Shown: piece by piece, positions 1 to 8,399 of the stretch
Layout: each line of letters starts with the position of its first letter
Numbering within the stretch: position 1 is the first letter of the stretch
DNA from: a virus
Taxonomy: Duplodnaviria; Heunggongvirae; Uroviricota; Caudoviricetes
Direction: 5' to 3' (one strand)
DNA: 18,713 bases
IMG/VR virus record: IMGVR_UViG_2663762939_000014
Translations under genes and position numbers: made by a program
The notes under the pieces: generated by a model
The model's input: the letters and a program-made list of their open reading frames with translations, nothing else
Databases searched by the model: none
What the model was told of the DNA's origin: nothing

Positions 1-288
1 TTAACGGATCAACATCCAGATCAGCAGACACGCCACCACCGGCACAGCAAAATCCATCAGGCTTGCCACATCCCACACGCGCGGATCAAAACCGCCCCAC
101 CACGGCATGTTAATCCTCTTGCCATGCCCAAACATTTCAATCCAGCGATATTCTGCCTGGGTGTGTTCACGCGCAATGAAGAACGTACAACCGGCTATCG
201 CACCGTAAGCCCAGTTTCCGGTAAAAAGACCAGCCAGTACCTGCACCGCTACGGCACAAAGCGCATGAAGTATCGACGTGATATCCAT
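1..288 (-). CDS. hypothetical small integral membrane protein (95 aa)
   Basis: ATG at 286-288 with AAGGA about 6 nt upstream; stop at 1-3; hydrophobic segments ILHALCAVAVQVLAGLF, AYGAIAGCTFFIA and LMDFAVPVVACLLIWMLI suggest 2-3 TM helices; starts 10 nt after the upstream ORF stop; no family recognised. Confidence 0.5.
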   Translation of the reverse strand: MDITSILHALCAVAVQVLAGLFTGNWAYGAIAGCTFFIAREHTQAEYRWIEMFGHGKRINMPWWGGFDPRVWDVASLMDFAVPVVACLLIWMLIR

Positions 289-297
289 CTGCTATCC

Positions 298-576
298 TTA
301 AAACCACTCCCTGAGCGGGCGCTCTGGTGTAACCACCCACTCACGGAACACGGAATCATCAAATCCATCGTCAAGAAGACGGATATTAACAAAGTACCCT
401 TCGTTTCGCGTGTATTCTGGTTCTCCGTCATCAGAAACATCTGTCTCCCTGAACGTAAAACCAATCTCATCAACCAGAACGGCATTCTGCAGCTCTTCGT
501 CCTCTTCCCAGTTAAGTTTCCTGAGAAATGCCCTGAAATCTGCTTTATCACTGAAACGCAACGTGAAATCTCTCAC
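298..576 (-). CDS. hypothetical small acidic protein (92 aa)
   Basis: GTG start at 574-576 overlapping the tail fibre stop (GTGA); GGGGAGG about 7 nt upstream; 24 Asp/Glu versus 12 Arg/Lys; no family recognised; not similar to lambda Tfa as I recall it. Confidence 0.5.
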   Translation of the reverse strand: MRDFTLRFSDKADFRAFLRKLNWEEDEELQNAVLVDEIGFTFRETDVSDDGEPEYTRNEGYFVNIRLLDDGFDDSVFREWVVTPERPLREWF

Positions 577-1838
577 TCCACAACCTCCCCAAGCTGCGCA
601 TCTGTTAGCTCTTTATGCCAGAGACGAAAATTCCTCACATGCCCAAATAAATGGCGTAATCCTGCTGTAGTTTGTCCACCAATGCGAATGGTTGCTGTAC
701 TCCGGATATATTCCCATTTGGTTTTAGTTTCGCTGCTTAACTTACCGTTACTGACTACACATGTGGACCGTTCGGACTTTACCCGCATACCAATAAGCAT
801 TTTTTCCAGCCCGGCATTTTCATTTATTCGTCGGTCTGAACCACCTATATCGCAATACGGAAAACCGTCGTACCCACCTGATGAACCAAACCCCATTACG
901 ATCCCCGCATCTGCCTGATGCCGGTATGTGTCAAAAACACGCGGTGCTGCATTTGGCGTTTTATACCAGTTCTTATGTACCTCACAAAGAACCGTAAAAG
1001 GAAGATTATAAAGATTATTCTTAATCGGAACTGTAACCATATCGCTTGCCCGCGTTACCGGTGCCGTCCCCGTAACAATAAAAGATGATGCGCCTGTACC
1101 AGCCTCAATCTGTGGAGTGGTTACATCGAGATAATCCCCTGATGCAACCATCTGCCCTGTATCCGGAGAATACTGGACAAAACCACCAACCGTATTTTCT
1201 GTTGTATCTGCTTTTAATGTAGCCTCAAAAAATATCCAGCCAGTTGCATCATCCTTAACAGACCTTGCTGTAACACGGCTTGTCTGACCTGTCTTGCTAA
1301 TTATGCGGGTGGTAAGGTTCAGGTTTGCTGCTCCTATTGATGTCCTTACCTCCCCATCATAATGTTCAAATAAAATACGAACGGCGATATTATCAACTTC
1401 ACTTTTTACCCGACAGGATATAGTTACATGCTTTTCGTCCCCTGAAGTATCAACCCCTCCGGTACTCGAATACAGCCCGATAATGGTATGCGCTTTACTT
1501 GTACCAACAATCGAATCCTGTACGACAAACCGGCCATAATTAAACCCGAAACTATCTGTGCCTGTTTCTGTAACGTCCAGTGAAGTTGACTTATTCCACT
1601 TCGAAGGGTCTGTACTGTTCGGGAAGAAGTTCGTTCTTTGCCCCTCAATAAGCAGGCCATCACACTCAAATCGTGGCTCATTAATTTCCGCCGTTTTCAG
1701 TTCGCCAGATTTGTTGATATATGTTGCCGTTGATGCGCGACTGAAATTAACCTGTTTATCACTGGCAACCTGAACCACATTATCACCAATCTTCACTTTT
1801 TTATAACCCGGTGGATTTGCCCCTATATTTCCAGACAT
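573..1838 (-). pseudogene. stf: C-terminal fragment of IS2-disrupted side tail fibre gene (distal receptor-binding region); native sequence is 573-1806, the first 9 codons of the track ORF (MSGNIGANP) are IS2-derived
   Basis: Native reading frame continues from the N-terminal fragment once IS2 plus one TSD copy is removed; ORF start ATG lies inside the IS2 terminal repeat; C-terminal end FGHVRNFRLWHKELTDAQL resembles a concanavalin/LamG-like lectin fold (inference). Confidence 0.7.
1807..1811. repeat. IS2 target-site duplication copy (CCCGG)
   Basis: Identical 5-bp CCCGG immediately flanking both IS2 ends (1807-1811 and 3143-3147). Confidence 0.85.
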
Positions 1839-2728
1839 CTGTTATCACTTAACCCATTACAAGCCCGCTGCCGCAGATATTCCCGTGGCGAGCGATAACC
1901 CAGCGCACTATGCGGATGCCATTCGTTATAATGCTCGAACGCCTCTGCAAGGTTCTTTGCTGCCGTTAACCCGTCTGGTTTGGGCATGATACTGATGTAG
2001 TCACGCTTTATCGTTTTCACGAAGCTCTCTGCTATTCCGTTACTCTCCGGACTCCGCACCGCCGTGTTCTTCGGTTCAAGTCCCAACATCCGGGCGAACT
2101 GGCGTGTTTCATTAGCCCGGTAGCATGAACCATTATCCGTCAGCCACTCCACTGGAGACGACGGAAGATCGTTGCCGAAGCGGCGTTCCACCGCTCCCAG
2201 CATGACGTCCTGTACTGTTTCACTGTTGAAGCCGCCGGTAGTGACCGCCCAGTGCAGTGCCTCACGATCACAGCAGTCCAGCGCGAACGTGACACGCAGT
2301 CTCTCTCCGTTATCACAGCAGAACTCGAACCCGTCAGAGCACCATCGCTGATTGCTTTCTTTCACGGCCACTCTGCCTGTATGTGCCCGTTTCGATGGCG
2401 GTACAGCAGGTTTTCGCTCAAGCAACAGCGCATTCTGGCGCATGATCCGGTAAACACGTTTGGCATTGATCGCAGGCATACCATCAAGTTCTGCCTGTCT
2501 GCGAAGCAGCGCCCATACCCGACGATAACCATACGTTGGCAGCTCTCCGATAACATGGTGTATACGGAGAAGCACATCCGTATCATCAGTGTGACGACTG
2601 CGGCGGCCATCCATCCAGTCATCGGTTCGTCTGAGAATGACGTGCAACTGCGCACGCGACACCCGGAGACAACGGCTGACTAAGCTTACTCCCCATCCCC
2701 GGGCAATAAGGGCGCGTGCGCTATCCAC
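1823..2728 (-). CDS. insD: IS2 transposase OrfB (InsD, 301 aa), normally made as an OrfAB fusion by -1 frameshifting
   Basis: Protein matches IS2 InsD from memory (DDE integrase-like catalytic region); overlaps orfA at the A AAA AAG slippery site. Confidence 0.9.
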
Positions 2729-3051
2729 TTTTTTGCCCGTCCATATTCAACGGCTTCTTTGAGGAGTTCATTTTCCATCGTTTTCTTGCCGAGCAGGCGC
2801 TGGAGTTCTTTAATCTGCTTCATGGCGGCAGCAAGTTCAGAGGCAGGAACAACCTGTTCTCCGGCGGCGACAGCAGTAAGACTTCCTTCCTGGTATTGCT
2901 TACGCCAGAGAAATAACTGGCTGGCTGCTACACCATGTTGCCGGGCAACGAGGGAGACCGTCATCCCCGGTTCAAAGCTCTGCTGAACAATTGCGATCTT
3001 TTCCTGTGTGGTACGCCGTCTGCGTTTCTCCGGCCCTAAGACATCAATCAT
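2686..3051 (-). CDS. insC: IS2 OrfA (InsC, 121 aa, helix-turn-helix regulator)
   Basis: ATG at 3049-3051 gives [24 protein letters not shown]..., matching IS2 InsC; the track ORF start at 3096 is an upstream extension. Confidence 0.88.
2728..2734 (-). other. IS2 programmed -1 ribosomal frameshift heptamer A AAA AAG (orfA to orfAB)
   Basis: Plus strand CTTTTTT at 2728-2734 is AAAAAAG on the minus strand, in the orfA/orfB overlap (OrfA ...AKKW...). Confidence 0.75.
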
Positions 3052-3126
3052 CTGTTCTCCAATGACTAGTCTAAAAACTAGTATTAAGACTATCACTTAT
3101 TTAAGTGATATTGGTTGTCTGGAGAT

Positions 3127-3981
3127 TCAGGGGGCCAGTCTACCCGGAGAATAGCCCGTAATCATATCCAGCGAATCATTAAAGGGTATCCACACATCCG
3201 GCAGCGGCTGTAAAACATATCTGTACGGCTCTGCTGTCTGGTTTGCGTATTCTCTGGCAGCATCTTCACTTGCTTTTGCTGCCGTCTGGCTTGCTGCCGA
3301 TGCTTTCGCCGAGTTCGCCGCCGCTGTTTCGCTCACCTTTGCGTTGGCTTCACTGTCTTTGGCATTCGTCTCACTGGTTTTCGCTGCCGTCTGGCTGGAT
3401 TTTGCGTTTTTTTCGCTGGCCTTTGTGGCTGTCTCGCTATTTTTCGCGCTGGTTTCTGATTTTTTGGCTGCTGTCGCGGAGTTTGCCGATGCAGTCTGCG
3501 AGGCCGCTGCCGCCTGTGCGCTGTTAGCTGCATTCGTTTCTGAGGTTTTCGCCGCGTTCTTCGATGATGTCGCTGCCGTTTCGGATTTCTTTGCCGCCGC
3601 TGCACTCTGTGATGACGCTCCGGCATGACGTGCCACTTCATTCACCATCAGCTCAAAACGGCGCAGTGCCTCCGGACGAACATCATCCTCCGTCATGGCA
3701 CCGAGAAAATCATTCAGCGTACCTGGTCTGGAACCTTCATAGACGGTAATGGTCCCGGCATGTGAAGGTGGAAAACCTTCAACCAGCAGGGTGACGCTGT
3801 ACTGGCCATACTCAACATCCATGCTGTAACGCCCGGCTTCATCCGGATTTTCAGAGGCCACCGTGTTCACCAGTACCGTGGTGCTGTTACGCTTTGCCTT
3901 CAGTTGAATAGTGCAGTTCTGTATTGGTTTTCCCGCACCATCTTTCAGCACACCTGAGATTTTTACTGCTGCCATATCCAC
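3127..3981 (-). pseudogene. stf: N-terminal fragment of IS2-disrupted side tail fibre gene (Stf-like anchor plus Ala/Ser/Thr-rich repeats); likely true start is the ATG at 3973-3975
   Basis: N-terminus (M)AAVKISGVLKDGAGKPIQNCTIQLKAKRNSTT...EGFPPSHAGTITVYE matches the lambda/Rac Stf N-terminus; last residues (RLAP) and stop are read from IS2; GGAG upstream of the ATG at 3975. Confidence 0.8.
3300..3640 (-). repeat. Imperfect tandem coding repeats (Ala/Ser/Thr-rich, SETNAK-like motifs) in the tail fibre shaft
   Basis: Repeated GCTGCCGTCTGGCT / TTTTCGC-type units on the plus strand; encodes KKSETAATSSKNAAKTSETNAANSA... low-complexity repeats. Confidence 0.6.
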
Positions 3982-3986
3982 TCCAC

Positions 3987-4012
3987 AAAAAAGCCCGCCT
4001 GAACCGGCGGGC
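3987..4012 (-). terminator. Putative intrinsic terminator downstream of lom
   Basis: Minus-strand hairpin GCCCGCC-GGTTCA-GGCGGGC followed by UUUUUU (plus-strand A-run 3987-3992, stems 3993-3999 and 4006-4012). Confidence 0.55.
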
Positions 4013-4039
4013 TGTCATAACACTGTGTTACCTGGCTAA

Positions 4040-4639
4040 TCAGAACTTATAACCGACACCCACGATGAAACCGTCAGTGCGCCAGTCACCACTACCGGAG
4101 CCTTCATAAGCAATATCAATGGCCACGGATTCGGTCGGGTTAAACTGCACGCCAGCCCCCCACGCCAGAGACGTGTTGCTGTGGCGACCGTCATCACTTC
4201 CGGTCAGCACATCGTGCGTTTTCCCCTTGTTGTCAGTTACGCGGAGATAATCCCCGGAGAAAGTCGACACACGGCTGTAAGCCACACCCACCATCGCATA
4301 CGCGCTGAACCATTCATTCACGCGTACAGACGGCCCCGCCATCACGCTGAACCAGCGGTTACGCACGGAATCTTCATGCCAGCGGGTATCGCTGTAGTGC
4401 GTTTTTTGCTCATCCTCAGCATTGGCATAACTGAAGGACGTAATCAGCCCCAGCGCGTCCGTAAACTCATAACGGTATTTCACGTTAATCCCGTTCAGAT
4501 TATCGCTGCCGGGAGCGTTCGTACGGGCATGAAGATACCCCGCGCTCAGTGTGGACTGATGTTCAGACGCCCATGCAGGCGCACCGGATACGGACAGACA
4601 GATGGCTGCGGACAAAATGGCTGCACATAATTTACGCAT
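4040..4639 (-). CDS. lom: Lom, Ail/Lom-family outer membrane beta-barrel protein (199 aa)
   Basis: Near-identical over most of its length to lambda Lom as I recall it (MRKL.AAILSAAICL.VSGAPAWASEHQSTLSAGYLHA...GFIVGVGYKF); signal peptide present. Confidence 0.93.
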   Translation of the reverse strand: MRKLCAAILSAAICLSVSGAPAWASEHQSTLSAGYLHARTNAPGSDNLNGINVKYRYEFTDALGLITSFSYANAEDEQKTHYSDTRWHEDSVRNRWFSVMAGPSVRVNEWFSAYAMVGVAYSRVSTFSGDYLRVTDNKGKTHDVLTGSDDGRHSNTSLAWGAGVQFNPTESVAIDIAYEGSGSGDWRTDGFIVGVGYKF

Positions 4640-4706: not shown

Positions 4707-7700
4707 TCAGCTAATCGTGATGCCTGCAGTGGCTTTCTTCATCACAACAACCAGCAAATCGCTGATACTTGCTGTGGGATACCAGCCATTTACCCACCAT
4801 GCTGATACAGAAAACTCCAGCGTCATGTCGCCGCGACCAGCAGGCATATCAATAACACCACTGTAAACCAGCGTATTATCCATCGCGGTACGGTTATAAA
4901 TTTCAGCACCGTTTTTCTTCACTATCAGGCGGCATGACGAATAAGTATCGCTGTTCTCCCGCTCATGTCTGGCACCGCTGAAAGCCACCGCCGGAATAAC
5001 AATCTGCCGGTTAAACGGCTGATCGTCATAAACCCTGACGGTAATGGTTCCTGATGGCCAACGCTTCGGTGCACGGGAGTCACGAGGGAAAGCCTTACCC
5101 ACTGTTTTAACGAGATCGCCTTCAATCTGGTTTGCAGACAGTTTCCCTCTGATGACACAGTTCTTGTTAATGGTGACATTATTGAGCGTGCCGGTATTCG
5201 CCGTGATGGCTCCACTGATATCCGCATTGCGGGCTGTCAGCCTGCCATCCGGCGTCAGGGAAAACGTCGGAGGATTGCCGGATGACGTGATGCTCACCGC
5301 AAACAGTCGCTTCAGGAACACGTCGTTCATGAACAGCTGATTCCCCTGCGCCACAAACAGCGGCGTGGTGTTGCCGTTCTCCGGGGTAATCATCGCAATG
5401 CGATCGGCCTGCAGCAGAATGTTACTCAGGGTCTGACCATCAACATCCTCAATCCCCGCGCCAATCCCGGCCACATAGGGAATACCGTTTTTTGTTTTCT
5501 GCACCTTCAGCATATACATGGCATTCAGCTCATTGCGCGTGTCTGACTGAACCCGCTGGATTTGCTGTATGGTCACGGCCTGGTCACCCAGCTTTTTATC
5601 CGTGGTCGAGGTAATTTCACTCCCTTTTTTATCCACGTACTGGCGGACCTGTGCTATCTGTCGGGCGTTTTCTGACTGCCCCTGGCTGACAGTCTGTGAG
5701 ATTTCACTGCTCACCCGGTCCACTTTCTGGCTCACCTGCGCGATGGCCAGTGTCTGGTCCTCATTCTTTTTCGCAACCAGCTGCGTGAGGCTGTTTTCCG
5801 CCTTCCCGATTTTCCGGGTCACTTCTGCGATATCCGTGTCCATCCGCTGACGGATATCTTCTTCCAGTTGCGTGACCTCCGTACGCAGCGCTGAAGCATC
5901 AATGCGCTCTTTCAGTGCCTGGCCCAGAAGCGTCTCATCTATCAGCCCCCGGAAAATTTCCAGATACCCTTCACCATCATTGCTGGGCTGCCCGCTGGCT
6001 TCCACAAAAGCAGATTTTCCCACCAGGTTGACGCTTCGCACGTAAAACCAGAAATCCGTCCCCGGCTTAATCCGGCTCCCCTGGACAGTCCACTGACTGC
6101 CGGTCCCCAGATAACGGGCAGATTTTTCCACCTGTGCTGTGTTCGTGATGCGTTTTTCTGAGAACCAGAATTCAAACTGCACCGTCGGGTCATACACCGC
6201 CAGCACCGGTACCGCCGTTATCTGAAAATACCCCGGCGTCAGCTCAATGGTGGCGGGTTTTGCAGGCGCGTTAATCCGGAAGGTGGTGGTCGCAGGTTCG
6301 CCCTGCTGGCCGTAGCTGTTAATGGCCCGCACCGTCAGGGTGTATTCCCCCAGTGGCAGGCCGCTGAAACGGTGCTCCGTGTCTGCGGTGATGGCGGTGG
6401 TCACCAGTCTGGCATCCGTTCCCTTACCACTGGTCAGGCGCAGACTGAAGCGCACGCCCTTCACCACCCGCGGCGTGTCCCATTTAGCCTGCGCCAGATA
6501 CTGGCCGTCAGCTGCGCTCACCTCCACCGTCAGGTGCTGCACTGCCGGTGGGATAACGCTGTTCAGGGTGCCTGACTGCGGCTCAAAGCGGGCCCCGTTA
6601 TCCACGATGGCTTCTTTTTCAGGTACGTGCTGCACCGCCGTGATGGCAAAGGTGCCGTCCGTGTTTTCCCGGATGGAGACACAGCGGAACAGGCGACGAC
6701 GCAGTGACGGCAGGGAGAGTCCCCACACACCGTATGTCTCCACACCATCCGGCAGGGTGCTGACCTGTATCCGGTCAGGCGCGGGGTGTGCGGTGATGGC
6801 CACGCTCGCCGGCTTACCGCTGCCGTTAATCAGATTAACAGTGGCCGTGCCGGTCTCCGGCAGTGTCACCTCCCGGTCCAGCGTCAGGGTACGGCTGGCG
6901 GCATCGATGGACAGGACACGTCCGCCGGTCATGGTCCCGGCATAGTCGTTATCACAGATTTCAATGATGTCACCGGGTGTGTGACGCAGCCCCTGTGACC
7001 CGAGCGTGAAATCCACCGTCTGCGTTTCCAGCAGTTCGGTCTTTATCACCCACAGCCCGGCACGGTGGGCCTGACCGCGGCTGGTACAGCCGAACGCGTC
7101 CATCTTCAGCAGGTTGCGTCCGTAGCGCAGTATGGCTTCCGGGTCTTCCACCAGTTCCGTGGAGGTCTGCCAGCCGTTCTGCGGGTCGGTGTAATTCACC
7201 TCCACCGCCGTGTGCCGGTCCTTCAGGGCACTGAAGCTGTAGCGGAAACCCACGCCGTTATCATCCACCACCACATCGCTGCTGGTGTACGGCCACACCA
7301 CATCCGACGGGCGGTCCTGAACGAACGTCAGCGTCTGACCGTTCCATACCGGCATACAGCGCATCGCAGAGCAGAAATCACTGAGAACGTCCCACGCCTT
7401 ACGCTGTTGTGCCAGGTACGCATTAAAGGTCATCCGCAGCTCGGTCCCCCCGAAACCATCCGGGACCGTCTGGTCGCAGTACTGCCCGATGGCATACAGC
7501 GCCCACTTGTCCACATCCGCCGCCCCCAGACGTTTTCCCATGCCGTAGCGCGGGTGAGTCAGCATGTCCCACAGACACCAGGCCGGGTTGTTGCTGTATG
7601 CCGGTTTCAGGCTGCCGTCCCAGATACCACTGTACGTGCGTTTTTCCGGGTCATAGTTTGACGGCACCTGGATGATGCGACCGCGGATATGGTAGTTCAC

Positions 7701-8399
7701 CGTCATCTGCTGGCCGCCGAACTGCTCCGCATCCACCTGCAGCCCCACAATGGCCGTGTTCGGGTAGCACTGTTTCACATCGATGATTTCGGTGTATGAC
7801 GACCACAGCGTCTTATTCTGCAGCTGGTCCGTGGTGCTGTCCGCCGTCTCCCTGACCATCCGGATGTTAAAGGGCCGGGGAGGCAGATTATCCAGAATCA
7901 CCGAGGCCAGGAACTGCGAGGTGGTCTTGCCGTTAATGGTGACATCCTTTTCCGTCACCCAGCGGCCATTACGCTGTAACTGAATCAGAATCCGGACAGA
8001 GGAAGGATTACGGTCGCCCTTTGACGTGGTCTGCACCAGTGACTGCACCCCGAAGGTAACCCGCAGGCGGTCAATGTTCGCGGACGTAATGGTGCGCGTC
8101 ACCGGTTTTGCCTTCGTCACTTCCACGCCCAGTCCGGTTTCAGCTCCGGAGGACTCAAAGCCTTCCGGTGGTGTCTGCTCCTGCTCCCCGGCACGCCAGA
8201 CCGCAGTCACACCGTGTATCACGGGATTACCGTCCGTGTCCGTCAGCGGGGTTTTGTTCACCAGAATACTCTGCAGTCCCTTCACCGGACCTTCTATCGG
8301 TCCCTCACCAATCGCATCAATCACACTCATCATCTGCGTGGATTTGAGATTATCCTTCGCCTCACGAGGCGTGTGTGCCTTACCGCCACCTTTTCCCAT
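4707..8399 (-). CDS. J: Tail tip central fibre / host specificity protein J (1230 aa)
   Basis: Collinear similarity to lambda J from the N-terminus ([19 protein letters not shown]...[14 protein letters not shown]) through the fibronectin-like region; longer than the ~1132-aa lambda J as I recall it, with an extended coiled-coil segment and a divergent C-terminus. Confidence 0.93.

What the first reader, a model, noticed from the sequence alone, without database searches (positions are those of the whole stretch)
1..576. Two-gene module (acidic 92-aa protein plus 95-aa membrane protein) coupled to the 3-prime end of the tail fibre gene
Where lambda has tfa, this prophage has two small, tightly packed genes with good ribosome-binding sites: an acidic cytoplasmic-looking protein (net charge about -12) whose GTG overlaps the fibre stop, then a 95-aa protein with 2-3 predicted TM helices. 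Neither resembles lambda Tfa as I recall it, and I recognise no family. The region distal to tail fibres in lambdoid prophages is a known hotspot for morons (superinfection exclusion, anti-defence, receptor modification). A small acidic protein could be a DNA-mimic-type anti-restriction factor or a dedicated fibre chaperone; a small membrane protein could be an exclusion or abortive-infection component. The window ends at the stop of the second gene, so the module may continue beyond position 1.
Basis: partly seen in the sequence, partly recalled or inferred. Interest (0 to 1): 0.55.

Follow-up and report, generated by a model that had tools for sequence, protein, structure and literature searches.

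The report
Tail-fibre partner protein plus small membrane protein
The two small genes after this prophage's tail-fibre gene are real but separable: a tiny acidic protein that accompanies one common sugar-binding fibre tip in many unrelated phages, and a 95-residue membrane protein of unknown function that also occurs with other fibres and alone.

Summary
Both ORFs exist as described: 92 aa, net charge -12, GTG overlapping the fibre stop; and 95 aa with three predicted helices. Both are under purifying selection. Neither matches Pfam, NCBIfam, PADLOC, PDB or any paper found. They fall in PHROG 1361 and 1443, both of unknown function.

They are separable rather than one obligate module. The acidic protein follows a ~420-aa distal fibre module (GTA-head-spike-like plus LamG-like) in lambdoid, T1-like, T5-like, Nonagvirus, Dhillonvirus and rV5-like phages. 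It occurs in 196 phage records against 222 for the module. Its start overlaps the fibre stop in nearly all 100 loci examined. Remote homologues (PHROG 18574) hold the same position in Comamonas and Pantoea prophages. It is most likely a dedicated assembly or accessory partner of that fibre tip.

The membrane protein is absent from the seven virulent-phage fibre loci inspected. It follows other fibres and tailspikes and stands alone in Aeromonas, Leclercia and Silvania chromosomes, yet it also accompanies this fibre module in Escherichia, Comamonas, Pantoea and Chelativorans. Its function is unknown; exclusion or envelope conversion is a guess.

The locus does not continue past position 1. The fibre gene here is split by IS2.

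The parts
298..576 (-). Gene for the 92-aa acidic protein (PHROG 1361). GTG start at 576-574 overlaps the fibre stop; SD GGGGAGG at 590-584; stop TAA at 300-298.
   Evidence: (E 1.1e-40, full length)
1..288 (-). Gene for the 95-aa three-helix membrane protein (PHROG 1443). ATG at 288-286; SD AAGGA at 299-295; stop TAA at 3-1.
   Evidence: (E 4.6e-57)
573..1811 (-). 3' part of the side-tail-fibre gene. It encodes the exchangeable distal module of about 412 aa: a GTA-head-spike-fibre-like domain followed by a LamG-like end. This is the partner of the acidic protein.
   Evidence: NF048003, 74.5 bits against cut-off 36; 6tb9 Rcc01080
1812..3141 (-). IS2 insertion that splits the fibre gene. Transposase ORFs lie at 2686..3096 and 1823..2728 on the - strand.
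3142..3975 (-). 5' part of the side-tail-fibre gene: prophage tail fibre N-terminal domain and shaft, up to the conserved joint ...LPDVWIPFNDSLDMITGYSPG.
   Evidence: (PF08400, E 6e-68)

Best explanation
The locus holds two separable units, not one obligate module.

Unit 1 is a cassette. It consists of the last ~420 residues of the side tail fibre (a glycan-binding head with a GTA-head-spike-like domain and a LamG-like domain) plus the 92-aa acidic protein. The acidic gene's start codon overlaps the fibre stop. This cassette is exchanged between lambdoid, T1-like, T5-like, Nonagvirus, Dhillonvirus and rV5-like phages at a conserved joint (LPDVWIPFNDSL). The fibre has no self-cleaving S74 chaperone and no Tfa gene follows it.

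Inferred mechanism: the acidic protein is made in step with the fibre by translational coupling. It binds the conserved framework of the head, whose last 130 residues are basic, rather than the hypervariable receptor-contact part. It thereby helps the head fold or assemble on the trimeric shaft, and it may stay bound as an accessory subunit. Partnership with the fibre module is shown by comparative data; chaperone action is inferred.

Unit 2 is the 95-aa protein, a self-contained three-helix inner-membrane protein. Its invariant polar residues lie in the helices and in a K/R-rich stretch (residues 40-73) predicted to face the cytoplasm. It is typically the last gene of receptor-binding-protein clusters of temperate phages of several morphotypes. 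It is often, but not always, behind this same fibre module, and it also exists as a lone chromosomal gene. It therefore acts on its own. The most likely target is a conserved envelope or inner-membrane process, giving superinfection exclusion or envelope conversion. That function is a guess.

In this window the fibre gene is broken by IS2, so unit 1 is probably idle here.
For: Distal fibre module:
- It is homologous in all seven fibres compared, from lambdoid phages and prophages and T1-, T5- and rV5-like phages.
- It is found in 222 phage records, 204 of them at >=80% coverage.
- The acidic protein is found in 196 records, 189 at >=80% coverage, across the same groups.

Coupling and partnership of the acidic gene:
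- In 100 loci holding both, the acidic start overlaps the fibre stop by 1-4 nt in nearly all.
- Remote homologues (PHROG 18574, E 2e-11; hhalign E 1.4e-4) sit in the same overlapping position after remote fibre-module homologues in Comamonas and Pantoea.
- The family is uniformly acidic, net charge -8 to -18. The fibre's last 130 aa have pI 9.2.
- Pfam finds no S74 or Tfa-type chaperone domain in the fibre parts or either small protein.
- The homologous RcGTA head fibre is a single subunit that binds capsule polysaccharide (PMC7296036).
- Acidic-protein identity tracks the conserved fibre segments (rho 0.76 and 0.69) more than the hypervariable one (0.42).
- dN/dS is 0.26 between two lambdoid copies that lack a second fibre gene.

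Membrane protein:
- 562 homologues and 441 clusters at 50% identity; the 150 best listed are 63-146 aa with no fused domains.
- 18 invariant residues and a confident three-helix model. K/R residues are concentrated in 40-73.
- Contexts: after a P22-like tailspike behind a terminator; after a P2-like tail fibre assembly gene; after an S74-type fibre; between tailspike genes; lone chromosomal gene.
- Preceded by the fibre module in 9 of about 50 species-level loci.
- Much lower synonymous divergence than the acidic gene among lambdoids.
Against: - No physical evidence exists for any interaction, and no co-fold could be run.
- In most virulent phages inspected the acidic gene lies between the fibre and a second, S74-type fibre gene. 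An adaptor role fits that arrangement equally well.
- The mirror-type correlation is confounded by shared ancestry and linkage.
- The fibre-acidic-membrane trio recurs in Escherichia, Comamonas and Pantoea with tight spacing. A functional link between the membrane protein and this fibre type is therefore not excluded.
- In the lambdoid context the membrane gene has no recognisable promoter or terminator of its own. That fits late co-expression better than a classical lysogeny-expressed moron.
- Nothing supports the specific exclusion or conversion function beyond position.
Confidence: 0.55

Rival explanations
1. The acidic protein is a structural adaptor. It stays on the tip of the main fibre and docks a second, short fibre protein (coiled coil plus S74 self-chaperone), giving branched fibres. 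In lambdoids without the second fibre it is a leftover or has a secondary role.
For: In KarlJaspers, HMD-P4, HMD-P3, JenP1, PhiR11_1_star and the BL21 Qin-like prophage, the acidic gene is directly followed by a fibre-like gene. In KarlBarth two 'putative tail fiber protein' genes follow it. Seven of the ten downstream proteins scanned carry Peptidase_S74. Branched LtfA/LtfB fibres are documented in T5-like phages (PMC4728585). Mosaic acidic proteins swap their C-terminal third.
Against: The window, phage 21, ev243, PhiR40_1 and nearly all of the 80 IMG/VR prophage loci lack the second fibre gene. They still keep the acidic gene intact and under purifying selection. The C-terminal tail motif (..R.W.) does not sort cleanly by presence of the second fibre. 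DT57C-type branched fibres do without such a protein, as far as the papers read say.
Confidence: 0.2
2. The two genes form one functional module, in which the acidic cytoplasmic protein works with the membrane protein. Possible roles are exclusion, abortive infection, a toxin-antitoxin-like pair or an anti-defence pair hitch-hiking on the fibre operon.
For: The genes are adjacent with 9-12 nt spacing in many E. coli prophages. The same order, with overlapping stop and start, occurs in Comamonas. Trios are found in Escherichia, Comamonas and Pantoea.
Against: The acidic gene occurs without the membrane gene in all seven virulent-phage loci inspected. The 75 phage records holding the membrane gene include none of the T1-like, T5-like, Nonagvirus, Dhillonvirus or rV5-like carriers of the acidic gene listed. 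The membrane gene occurs without any acidic homologue in about 40 of 50 species-level loci. A second fibre gene is often inserted between the two. Synonymous divergence differs sharply between the two genes, indicating a recombination boundary. There are no PADLOC hits.
Confidence: 0.07
3. The acidic protein is a DNA-mimic anti-restriction or anti-defence factor.
For: It is small and strongly acidic, with net charge -12 and pI 4.3. It matches no known family.
Against: It sits in the late structural operon and is translationally coupled to a fibre gene in every lineage. It co-occurs almost one-to-one with one fibre module. Its alpha/beta fold resembles no solved mimic. Known anti-restriction proteins such as Ocr and ArdA are made early (general knowledge).
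Confidence: 0.03
4. The membrane protein is a small membrane enzyme or regulator of a lipid-linked envelope pathway (LPS, O-antigen, capsule or undecaprenyl cycle). It changes the glycan that fibres and tailspikes bind, which would be a single-gene conversion function.
For: About 18 invariant, mostly polar residues span alpha-, beta- and gamma-proteobacteria. That pattern is more typical of a conserved target or active site than of a phage-specific exclusion protein. The gene is linked to glycan-binding receptor proteins of many kinds. It occupies the slot where P22 carries gtr (general knowledge). Stable lone chromosomal copies exist.
Against: There is no similarity to any enzyme or transporter. 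The sequence is nearly constant while the neighbouring receptor-binding regions are hypervariable, so it cannot be receptor-specific. No partner genes are seen.
Confidence: 0.15
5. The membrane protein is a holin-like or lysis-timing protein.
For: It is about 95 aa with three transmembrane helices, like class I holins (general knowledge). In lambdoids it is apparently co-transcribed with late genes.
Against: It is not in or near a lysis cassette in any annotated context seen. It lacks the charged C-terminal tail typical of holins (sequence). It has a strongly conserved loop. Lone chromosomal copies lie in housekeeping contexts. It matches no Pfam family at all, holin families included.
Confidence: 0.05

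Closest known systems
Tail fibre assembly chaperones of the Tfa type (lambda Tfa, Mu U, P2 G; Pfam Caudo_TAP PF02413)
   Same: The gene lies immediately downstream of the fibre gene and is exchanged together with the fibre's distal part. It occupies the place where lambda has tfa. The role proposed here, in fibre tip assembly, is the same.
   Different: There is no sequence match and the protein is half the size. It is an alpha/beta domain with no structural neighbour. The fibre tip it accompanies is a lectin-like jelly-roll head, not the Tfa-dependent tip. Binding to the tip has not been shown.
Intramolecular S74 chaperone domains (T5 pb1, K1F endosialidase, DT57C LtfA/LtfB)
   Same: They solve the same problem of C-terminal folding and trimerisation of fibres. 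In many carriers such S74 fibres are encoded right after the acidic gene.
   Different: They are part of the fibre chain and are cleaved off (PMC4728585). The fibre here has no S74 domain, and the candidate helper is a separate 92-aa protein.
RcGTA head spike fibre Rcc01080 (PDB 6tb9; NCBIfam NF048003)
   Same: The first domain of the distal fibre module belongs to this family. Rcc01080 binds capsule polysaccharide as a single subunit.
   Different: In RcGTA the protein sits on the capsid, and the papers read report no small acidic partner. Here the domain is fused to a trimeric tail-fibre shaft and followed by a LamG-like domain.
Receptor-gene-linked exclusion and conversion genes (cor, T5 llp, P22 gtrABC, P2 Z/fun, HK97 gp15, T4 imm)
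   Same: They are small envelope proteins encoded next to receptor-binding protein genes or at the same cargo slots: after the P22-like tailspike, and after the P2-like fibre assembly gene. They act alone.
   Different: There is no homology to any of them. The protein is not a lipoprotein. In lambdoids it has no own promoter or terminator. It is highly conserved across bacterial classes and also chromosomal. No exclusion phenotype is known.

Membership tests
PHROG 1361 (unknown function) - acidic protein | Full-length profile match | tested here: met
   E 1.1e-40, residues 1-92 on profile positions 1-92 of 92. The sister family PHROG 18574 matches weakly (E 2.5e-4) and holds the Comamonas and Pantoea homologues.
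PHROG 1443 (unknown function) - membrane protein | Full-length profile match | tested here: met
   E 4.6e-57, residues 1-95 on profile positions 1-95 of 97.
Tfa-type tail fibre assembly proteins (Pfam Caudo_TAP) | Match to the family profile | tested here: not met
   No Pfam hit to Caudo_TAP or any chaperone family at E <= 1. No NCBIfam hit.
Tfa-type tail fibre assembly proteins (Pfam Caudo_TAP) | Gene directly downstream of, and co-inherited with, the distal part of the fibre gene | tested here: met
   The start overlaps the fibre stop in nearly all of 100 loci. The acidic protein occurs in 196 phage records against 222 for the module.
Tfa-type tail fibre assembly proteins (Pfam Caudo_TAP) | Binds the fibre tip and is required for its folding | not testable with these tools
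   No multimer prediction was available, and this needs experiment.
Self-chaperoned fibres (Peptidase_S74) | S74 domain at the C-terminus of the fibre | tested here: not met
   The fibre C-part shows only a weak Laminin_G_3 hit and NF048003. S74 is present instead in the second fibre proteins of other phages.
GTA head spike fibre domain (NCBIfam NF048003) - the fibre, not the two small genes | Score above the curated cut-off | tested here: met
   74.5 bits against a cut-off of 36, residues 63-264. PDB 6tb9 Rcc01080 matches at E 4.6e-6.
DNA-mimic anti-restriction proteins (Ocr, ArdA type) | Strongly acidic surface | tested here: met
   Net charge -12, pI 4.26.
DNA-mimic anti-restriction proteins (Ocr, ArdA type) | Sequence or fold similarity to a known mimic; early or leading-region gene | tested here: not met
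Moron (independent transcription unit inserted in a phage operon) | Own promoter and terminator | tested here: inconclusive
   In the lambdoid context no promoter or terminator was found on the gene's strand, and spacing is 9 nt. In P22-like Gally a terminator follows the tailspike gene, then a promoter-like site precedes the membrane gene, but promoter-like sites are not above chance.
Class I holins | About 100 aa with three transmembrane helices | tested here: met
   Helices at 4-23, 26-53 and 74-94.
Class I holins | Location in a lysis cassette; charged C-terminal tail | tested here: not met
   The gene follows fibre or tailspike genes, not endolysin genes. The protein ends one to four residues after helix 3.
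Known anti-phage defence systems (PADLOC-DB 2.0) | Match to any model | tested here: not met
   No hits for either protein at E <= 1.
Cor/Llp-type outer-membrane lipoprotein exclusion factors | Lipoprotein signal peptide with lipobox cysteine | tested here: not met
   There is no basic n-region. C11 is preceded by H-A-L, which is not a lipobox, and is not conserved in the family consensus. There is no PHROG or Pfam match to Cor or Llp.

The most novel reading that the evidence does not exclude
The 92-aa acidic protein founds a new structural class of trans-acting tail-fibre assembly or accessory proteins. This class would be specific to lectin-type (GTA-spike/LamG) fibre heads, would remain on the tip, and would serve as the docking point for a second fibre. 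Separately, the 95-aa protein would be a minimal three-helix membrane enzyme or regulator. It would act from the cytoplasmic face on a conserved envelope pathway, such as the supply of undecaprenyl-linked glycans, giving phages with glycan-binding receptor proteins a generic one-gene way to alter the cell surface or block entry.
Probability: 0.12. Interest if true: 0.75.

Novelty: new variant of a known kind. Interest (0 to 1): 0.42.

Why it matters
This fibre head is one of the commonest exchangeable receptor-binding modules of coliphages. It occurs in at least 222 sequenced phages of six or more groups and in many E. coli prophages, and these are groups of the kind used for therapy and host-range engineering. 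If the small acidic protein is needed for that head to assemble, any fibre swap or chimeric fibre must carry it along. Current annotations call it 'hypothetical', and in the papers found here it is not mentioned at all.

The membrane protein defines an uncharacterised, strongly conserved 95-100-aa family. It marks the end of receptor-binding gene clusters in temperate phages from alpha- to gamma-proteobacteria and is present in about a third of complete E. coli genomes (1906 of 5426). A function in exclusion or surface conversion would be a widespread prophage trait. Both are cheap to test.

For this particular window the finding is ordinary. It is one more copy of two catalogued but unstudied families, beside a fibre gene inactivated by IS2.

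Tried and rejected
Searches that gave nothing useful:
- Pfam, NCBIfam and PADLOC scans of both proteins found nothing.
- PDB sequence searches with single sequences and profiles found nothing.
- Foldseek against BFVD returned only uncharacterised phage proteins at E about 3e-4.
- The afdb50 library was not available.
- Literature searches on phage 21 side tail fibre, 'lateral tail fiber chaperone', LtfA/LtfB, BASEL, ECOR13 and accession numbers found no paper on either protein.

A corrected lead:
- The annotation 'putative lateral tail fiber chaperone' in KarlJaspers and HMD-P4 belongs to the next gene, an S74-type short fibre, not to the acidic protein.

Analyses of limited value:
- An IMG/VR scan with the KarlJaspers protein gave only 2 loci.
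- The alignment-based scan returned only close E. coli prophages.
- The mirror-tree-style correlation is confounded by linkage and ancestry and is used only as a weak hint.
- Promoter and terminator scans were not above chance.
- The tail-motif versus second-fibre test showed no clean rule.
- Rfam hits downstream in SCU-172 are tRNA-like noise.

Not possible:
- Co-folding of the fibre and the acidic protein.

Full report
**Observation**

Both ORFs are present as described. The 92-aa ORF (298..576, - strand) starts with a GTG whose last two bases begin the fibre's TGA (GTGA, 576-573). A GGGGAGG ribosome-binding site lies 7 nt upstream. The 95-aa ORF (1..288, -) starts 9 nt after the first gene's stop, behind AAGGA. 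The first protein has net charge -12 and pI 4.26. The second is predicted with high confidence (mean pLDDT 94.9) to be three helices, 4-23, 26-53 and 74-94.

Both genes are under purifying selection. dN/dS is 0.08-0.30 for the acidic gene and 0.12-0.31 (one close pair 0.50) for the membrane gene. Neither matches Pfam, NCBIfam or PADLOC. They fall in PHROG 1361 and PHROG 1443, both labelled 'unknown function'.

**Two corrections to the setting**

The upstream ORF is only the 3' part of a side-tail-fibre gene. Comparison with the identical locus of E. coli SCU-172 shows that window 1-1811 and 3142-4500 are contiguous there. The 1.33 kb between them is IS2. The insertion lies just after the conserved joint ...LPDVWIPFNDSLDMITGYSPG.

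The locus also does not continue beyond position 1. In SCU-172 the membrane gene is followed by about 350 bp, then a 3' fragment of tRNA-Ser, which looks like an attachment-site remnant, and then host zinT. In phage 21 and ev243 the downstream genes are unrelated cargo: sitABCD in one, a methyltransferase in the other.

**The acidic protein belongs to the fibre tip**

The last ~420 residues of the fibre are a distinct module. It has a domain of the GTA head-spike-fibre family (NF048003, 74.5 bits; PDB 6tb9 Rcc01080) followed by a LamG-like end. The same module, beginning at the same joint, ends all seven fibres compared. These come from lambdoid phages and prophages (the window, phage 21, ev243, the BL21 Qin-like prophage), T1-like KarlJaspers, T5-like HMD-P4 and rV5-like CarlMeissner.

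tblastn finds the module in 222 phage records, 204 of them nearly full length. It finds the acidic protein in 196 records, 189 nearly full length. The hosts are the same groups: Drexlerviridae, Demerecviridae, Queuovirinae, Dhillonvirus, Vequintavirinae, lambdoids and a phage-plasmid.

In 100 loci that hold both, the acidic gene's start overlaps the fibre's stop by 1-4 nt in nearly all. The exceptions are loci with frameshifts or insertions, and HMD-P3.

The pairing reaches beyond enterobacteria. In Comamonas (three species) and Pantoea, a ~390-aa remote homologue of the module (PHROG 5939) is overlapped at its stop by an acidic 95-188-aa ORF. That ORF matches PHROG 18574 (E 2e-11), the family that is the window protein's second-best hit. 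It also aligns to the acidic family by profile-profile comparison, at E 1.4e-4 with 33% identity over 58 columns.

**What the acidic protein probably does**

The protein is a compact beta-alpha-alpha-beta4 domain with a less ordered C-terminal tail. The tail carries invariant R89 and W91. The fold has no meaningful structural neighbour. The whole family is acidic, net charge -8 to -18, while the last 130 residues of the fibre are basic, pI 9.2.

Pfam finds no self-cleaving S74 chaperone and no Tfa-type domain in the fibre parts or in either small protein. The RcGTA relative of the head is a single subunit that binds capsule polysaccharide. This suggests three independent heads hanging from a trimeric shaft.

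From this I infer that the acidic protein is a dedicated partner of the head. Most likely it is an assembly factor made in step with the fibre, and it may remain bound. Its sequence follows the conserved framework of the head more than the hypervariable segment: rho is 0.76 and 0.69 against 0.42. That analysis is confounded by linkage.

The main rival is an adaptor role. In most virulent carriers inspected and in some lambdoids, the acidic gene is followed by a second, short fibre gene with a coiled coil and an S74 domain. However, the window, phage 21, ev243, PhiR40_1 and nearly all of the 80 IMG/VR prophage loci lack that gene and still keep the acidic gene intact.

A DNA-mimic or anti-defence role is unlikely, given the late, coupled, fibre-bound position.

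**The membrane protein is a separable unit**

It is absent from the seven virulent-phage loci inspected that carry fibre plus acidic gene. The 75 phage records that hold it include none of the T1-like, T5-like, Nonagvirus, Dhillonvirus or rV5-like carriers listed for the acidic gene.

Conversely, it follows other receptor-binding genes:
- a P22-like tailspike in phage Gally, behind a terminator;
- a P2-like tail fibre assembly gene in Halomonas phage phiHAP-1;
- an S74 'pyocin knob' fibre in a lambdoid prophage;
- a giant J-like protein in Comamonas;
- positions between tailspike genes in Cobetia phage Carin-5 and in a Salmonella contig.

It also stands alone among housekeeping genes in Aeromonas (after a pirin gene), Leclercia (between prlC and a MetE-like gene) and Silvania (next to a porin gene).

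The family has 562 homologues by word search and 441 clusters at 50% identity in the exhaustive search. The 150 best listed are 63-146 aa with no fused domains. It spans gamma-, beta-, alpha- and delta-proteobacteria. It is present in 1906 of 5426 complete E. coli genomes.

Eighteen positions are invariant: D2, H8, Q16, G29, R40, E41, Q44, A45, E46, Y47, W49, G56, R58, P62, G65, G66, F67 and D79. K/R residues are concentrated in 40-73, which predicts a cytoplasmic location for that conserved stretch (inference by the positive-inside rule).

Among lambdoids its synonymous divergence is 0.06-0.23, while that of the acidic gene is saturated. A recombination boundary therefore runs between the two genes.

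**A caveat on independence**

In the species-level genome scan, the fibre module precedes the membrane gene in 9 of about 50 loci: Escherichia, Comamonas, Pantoea and Chelativorans. In Comamonas the acidic gene's stop overlaps the membrane gene's start. A looser functional tie to this fibre type, or repeated co-transfer, is not excluded.

**Function of the membrane protein**

Nothing identifies it. It resembles no solved structure or family, and no paper was found. It acts without a fixed partner. It is linked to glycan-binding receptor proteins of temperate phages. It sits in slots where other phages carry conversion or exclusion genes, and its many invariant polar residues are conserved across bacterial classes.

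My best guess is an effect on a conserved inner-membrane or envelope process, giving superinfection exclusion or surface conversion. A small-enzyme reading is a serious alternative, and a holin-like role is an unlikely one. All of this is inference from context.

**Verdict**

The locus is not one obligate two-gene module. It is a fibre-tip cassette with its own small partner protein, followed by a separately mobile small membrane protein. Both belong to catalogued but unstudied families, and this copy sits beside an IS2-inactivated fibre gene. Interest lies in the families, not in this instance.

Noticed in passing
window 1812-3141: IS2 is inserted in the side-tail-fibre gene with a 5-6 bp duplication. 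The insertion point is just after the conserved joint between the shaft and the exchangeable distal module, so the fibre gene is a pseudogene here.
   Followed up: yes
L003 (E. coli SCU-172) 5590-5650, about 350 bp beyond window position 1: A 3' fragment of tRNA-Ser, not a whole tRNA, lies between the membrane gene and host zinT. It is probably the prophage attachment-site remnant. The Rfam 'hits' there are tRNA-like noise.
   Followed up: partly
L004 5290-5994, L005 3770-4447, L007 3786-4787, L152 2789-3844, L154 2783-3823, L155 2816-4972: In many phages a second, short fibre protein follows the acidic gene. It has an N-terminal coiled coil and a Peptidase_S74 self-chaperone. Some records label it 'putative lateral tail fiber chaperone'. 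The window lacks it.
   Followed up: partly
proteins P0244 and P0256 (alignment A3): These are mosaic acidic proteins. The N-terminal two-thirds belong to one subtype and the C-terminal third to another, with the joint near residue 55-60. This points to recombination inside the 92-aa gene.
   Followed up: no
L095 (phage HC6) 3501-3659, and five further records listed (four of ~47.7 kb, one of 73 kb): An unannotated remnant of the membrane gene (residues 41-93, 40% identity) lies directly after an 859-aa unannotated protein in these phage genomes.
   Followed up: no
L113 4484-4999, L116 and L122 4432-4998: The Pantoea and Comamonas homologues of the acidic protein carry an extra C-terminal extension of 75-95 aa (PHROG 6034, unknown function), which is absent in E. 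coli. In L100, the Comamonas copy without the extension, the stop overlaps the start of the membrane gene.
   Followed up: partly
L012, L101, L107, L108 (Aeromonas chromosomes): A homologue of the membrane protein lies just after a pirin gene in A. rivipollensis (L012). An upstream ORF of the same size and spacing precedes it in A. aquatica and A. media, and two of the 42 upstream neighbours scanned hit Pirin. This looks like a resident chromosomal gene, not a prophage gene.
   Followed up: partly
L001 (phage 21) 1445-4894: Phage 21 carries a sitABCD iron/manganese transporter operon immediately after the membrane gene, on the opposite strand. This shows that the slot beyond this gene is a cargo region.
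   Followed up: no
window 4040-4639 and 4707-8399: ORFs at the positions where the identical SCU-172 locus has lom (Ail/Lom family) and the J tail-tip gene lie upstream of the fibre gene. This gives the usual lambda order J-lom-stf.
   Followed up: no
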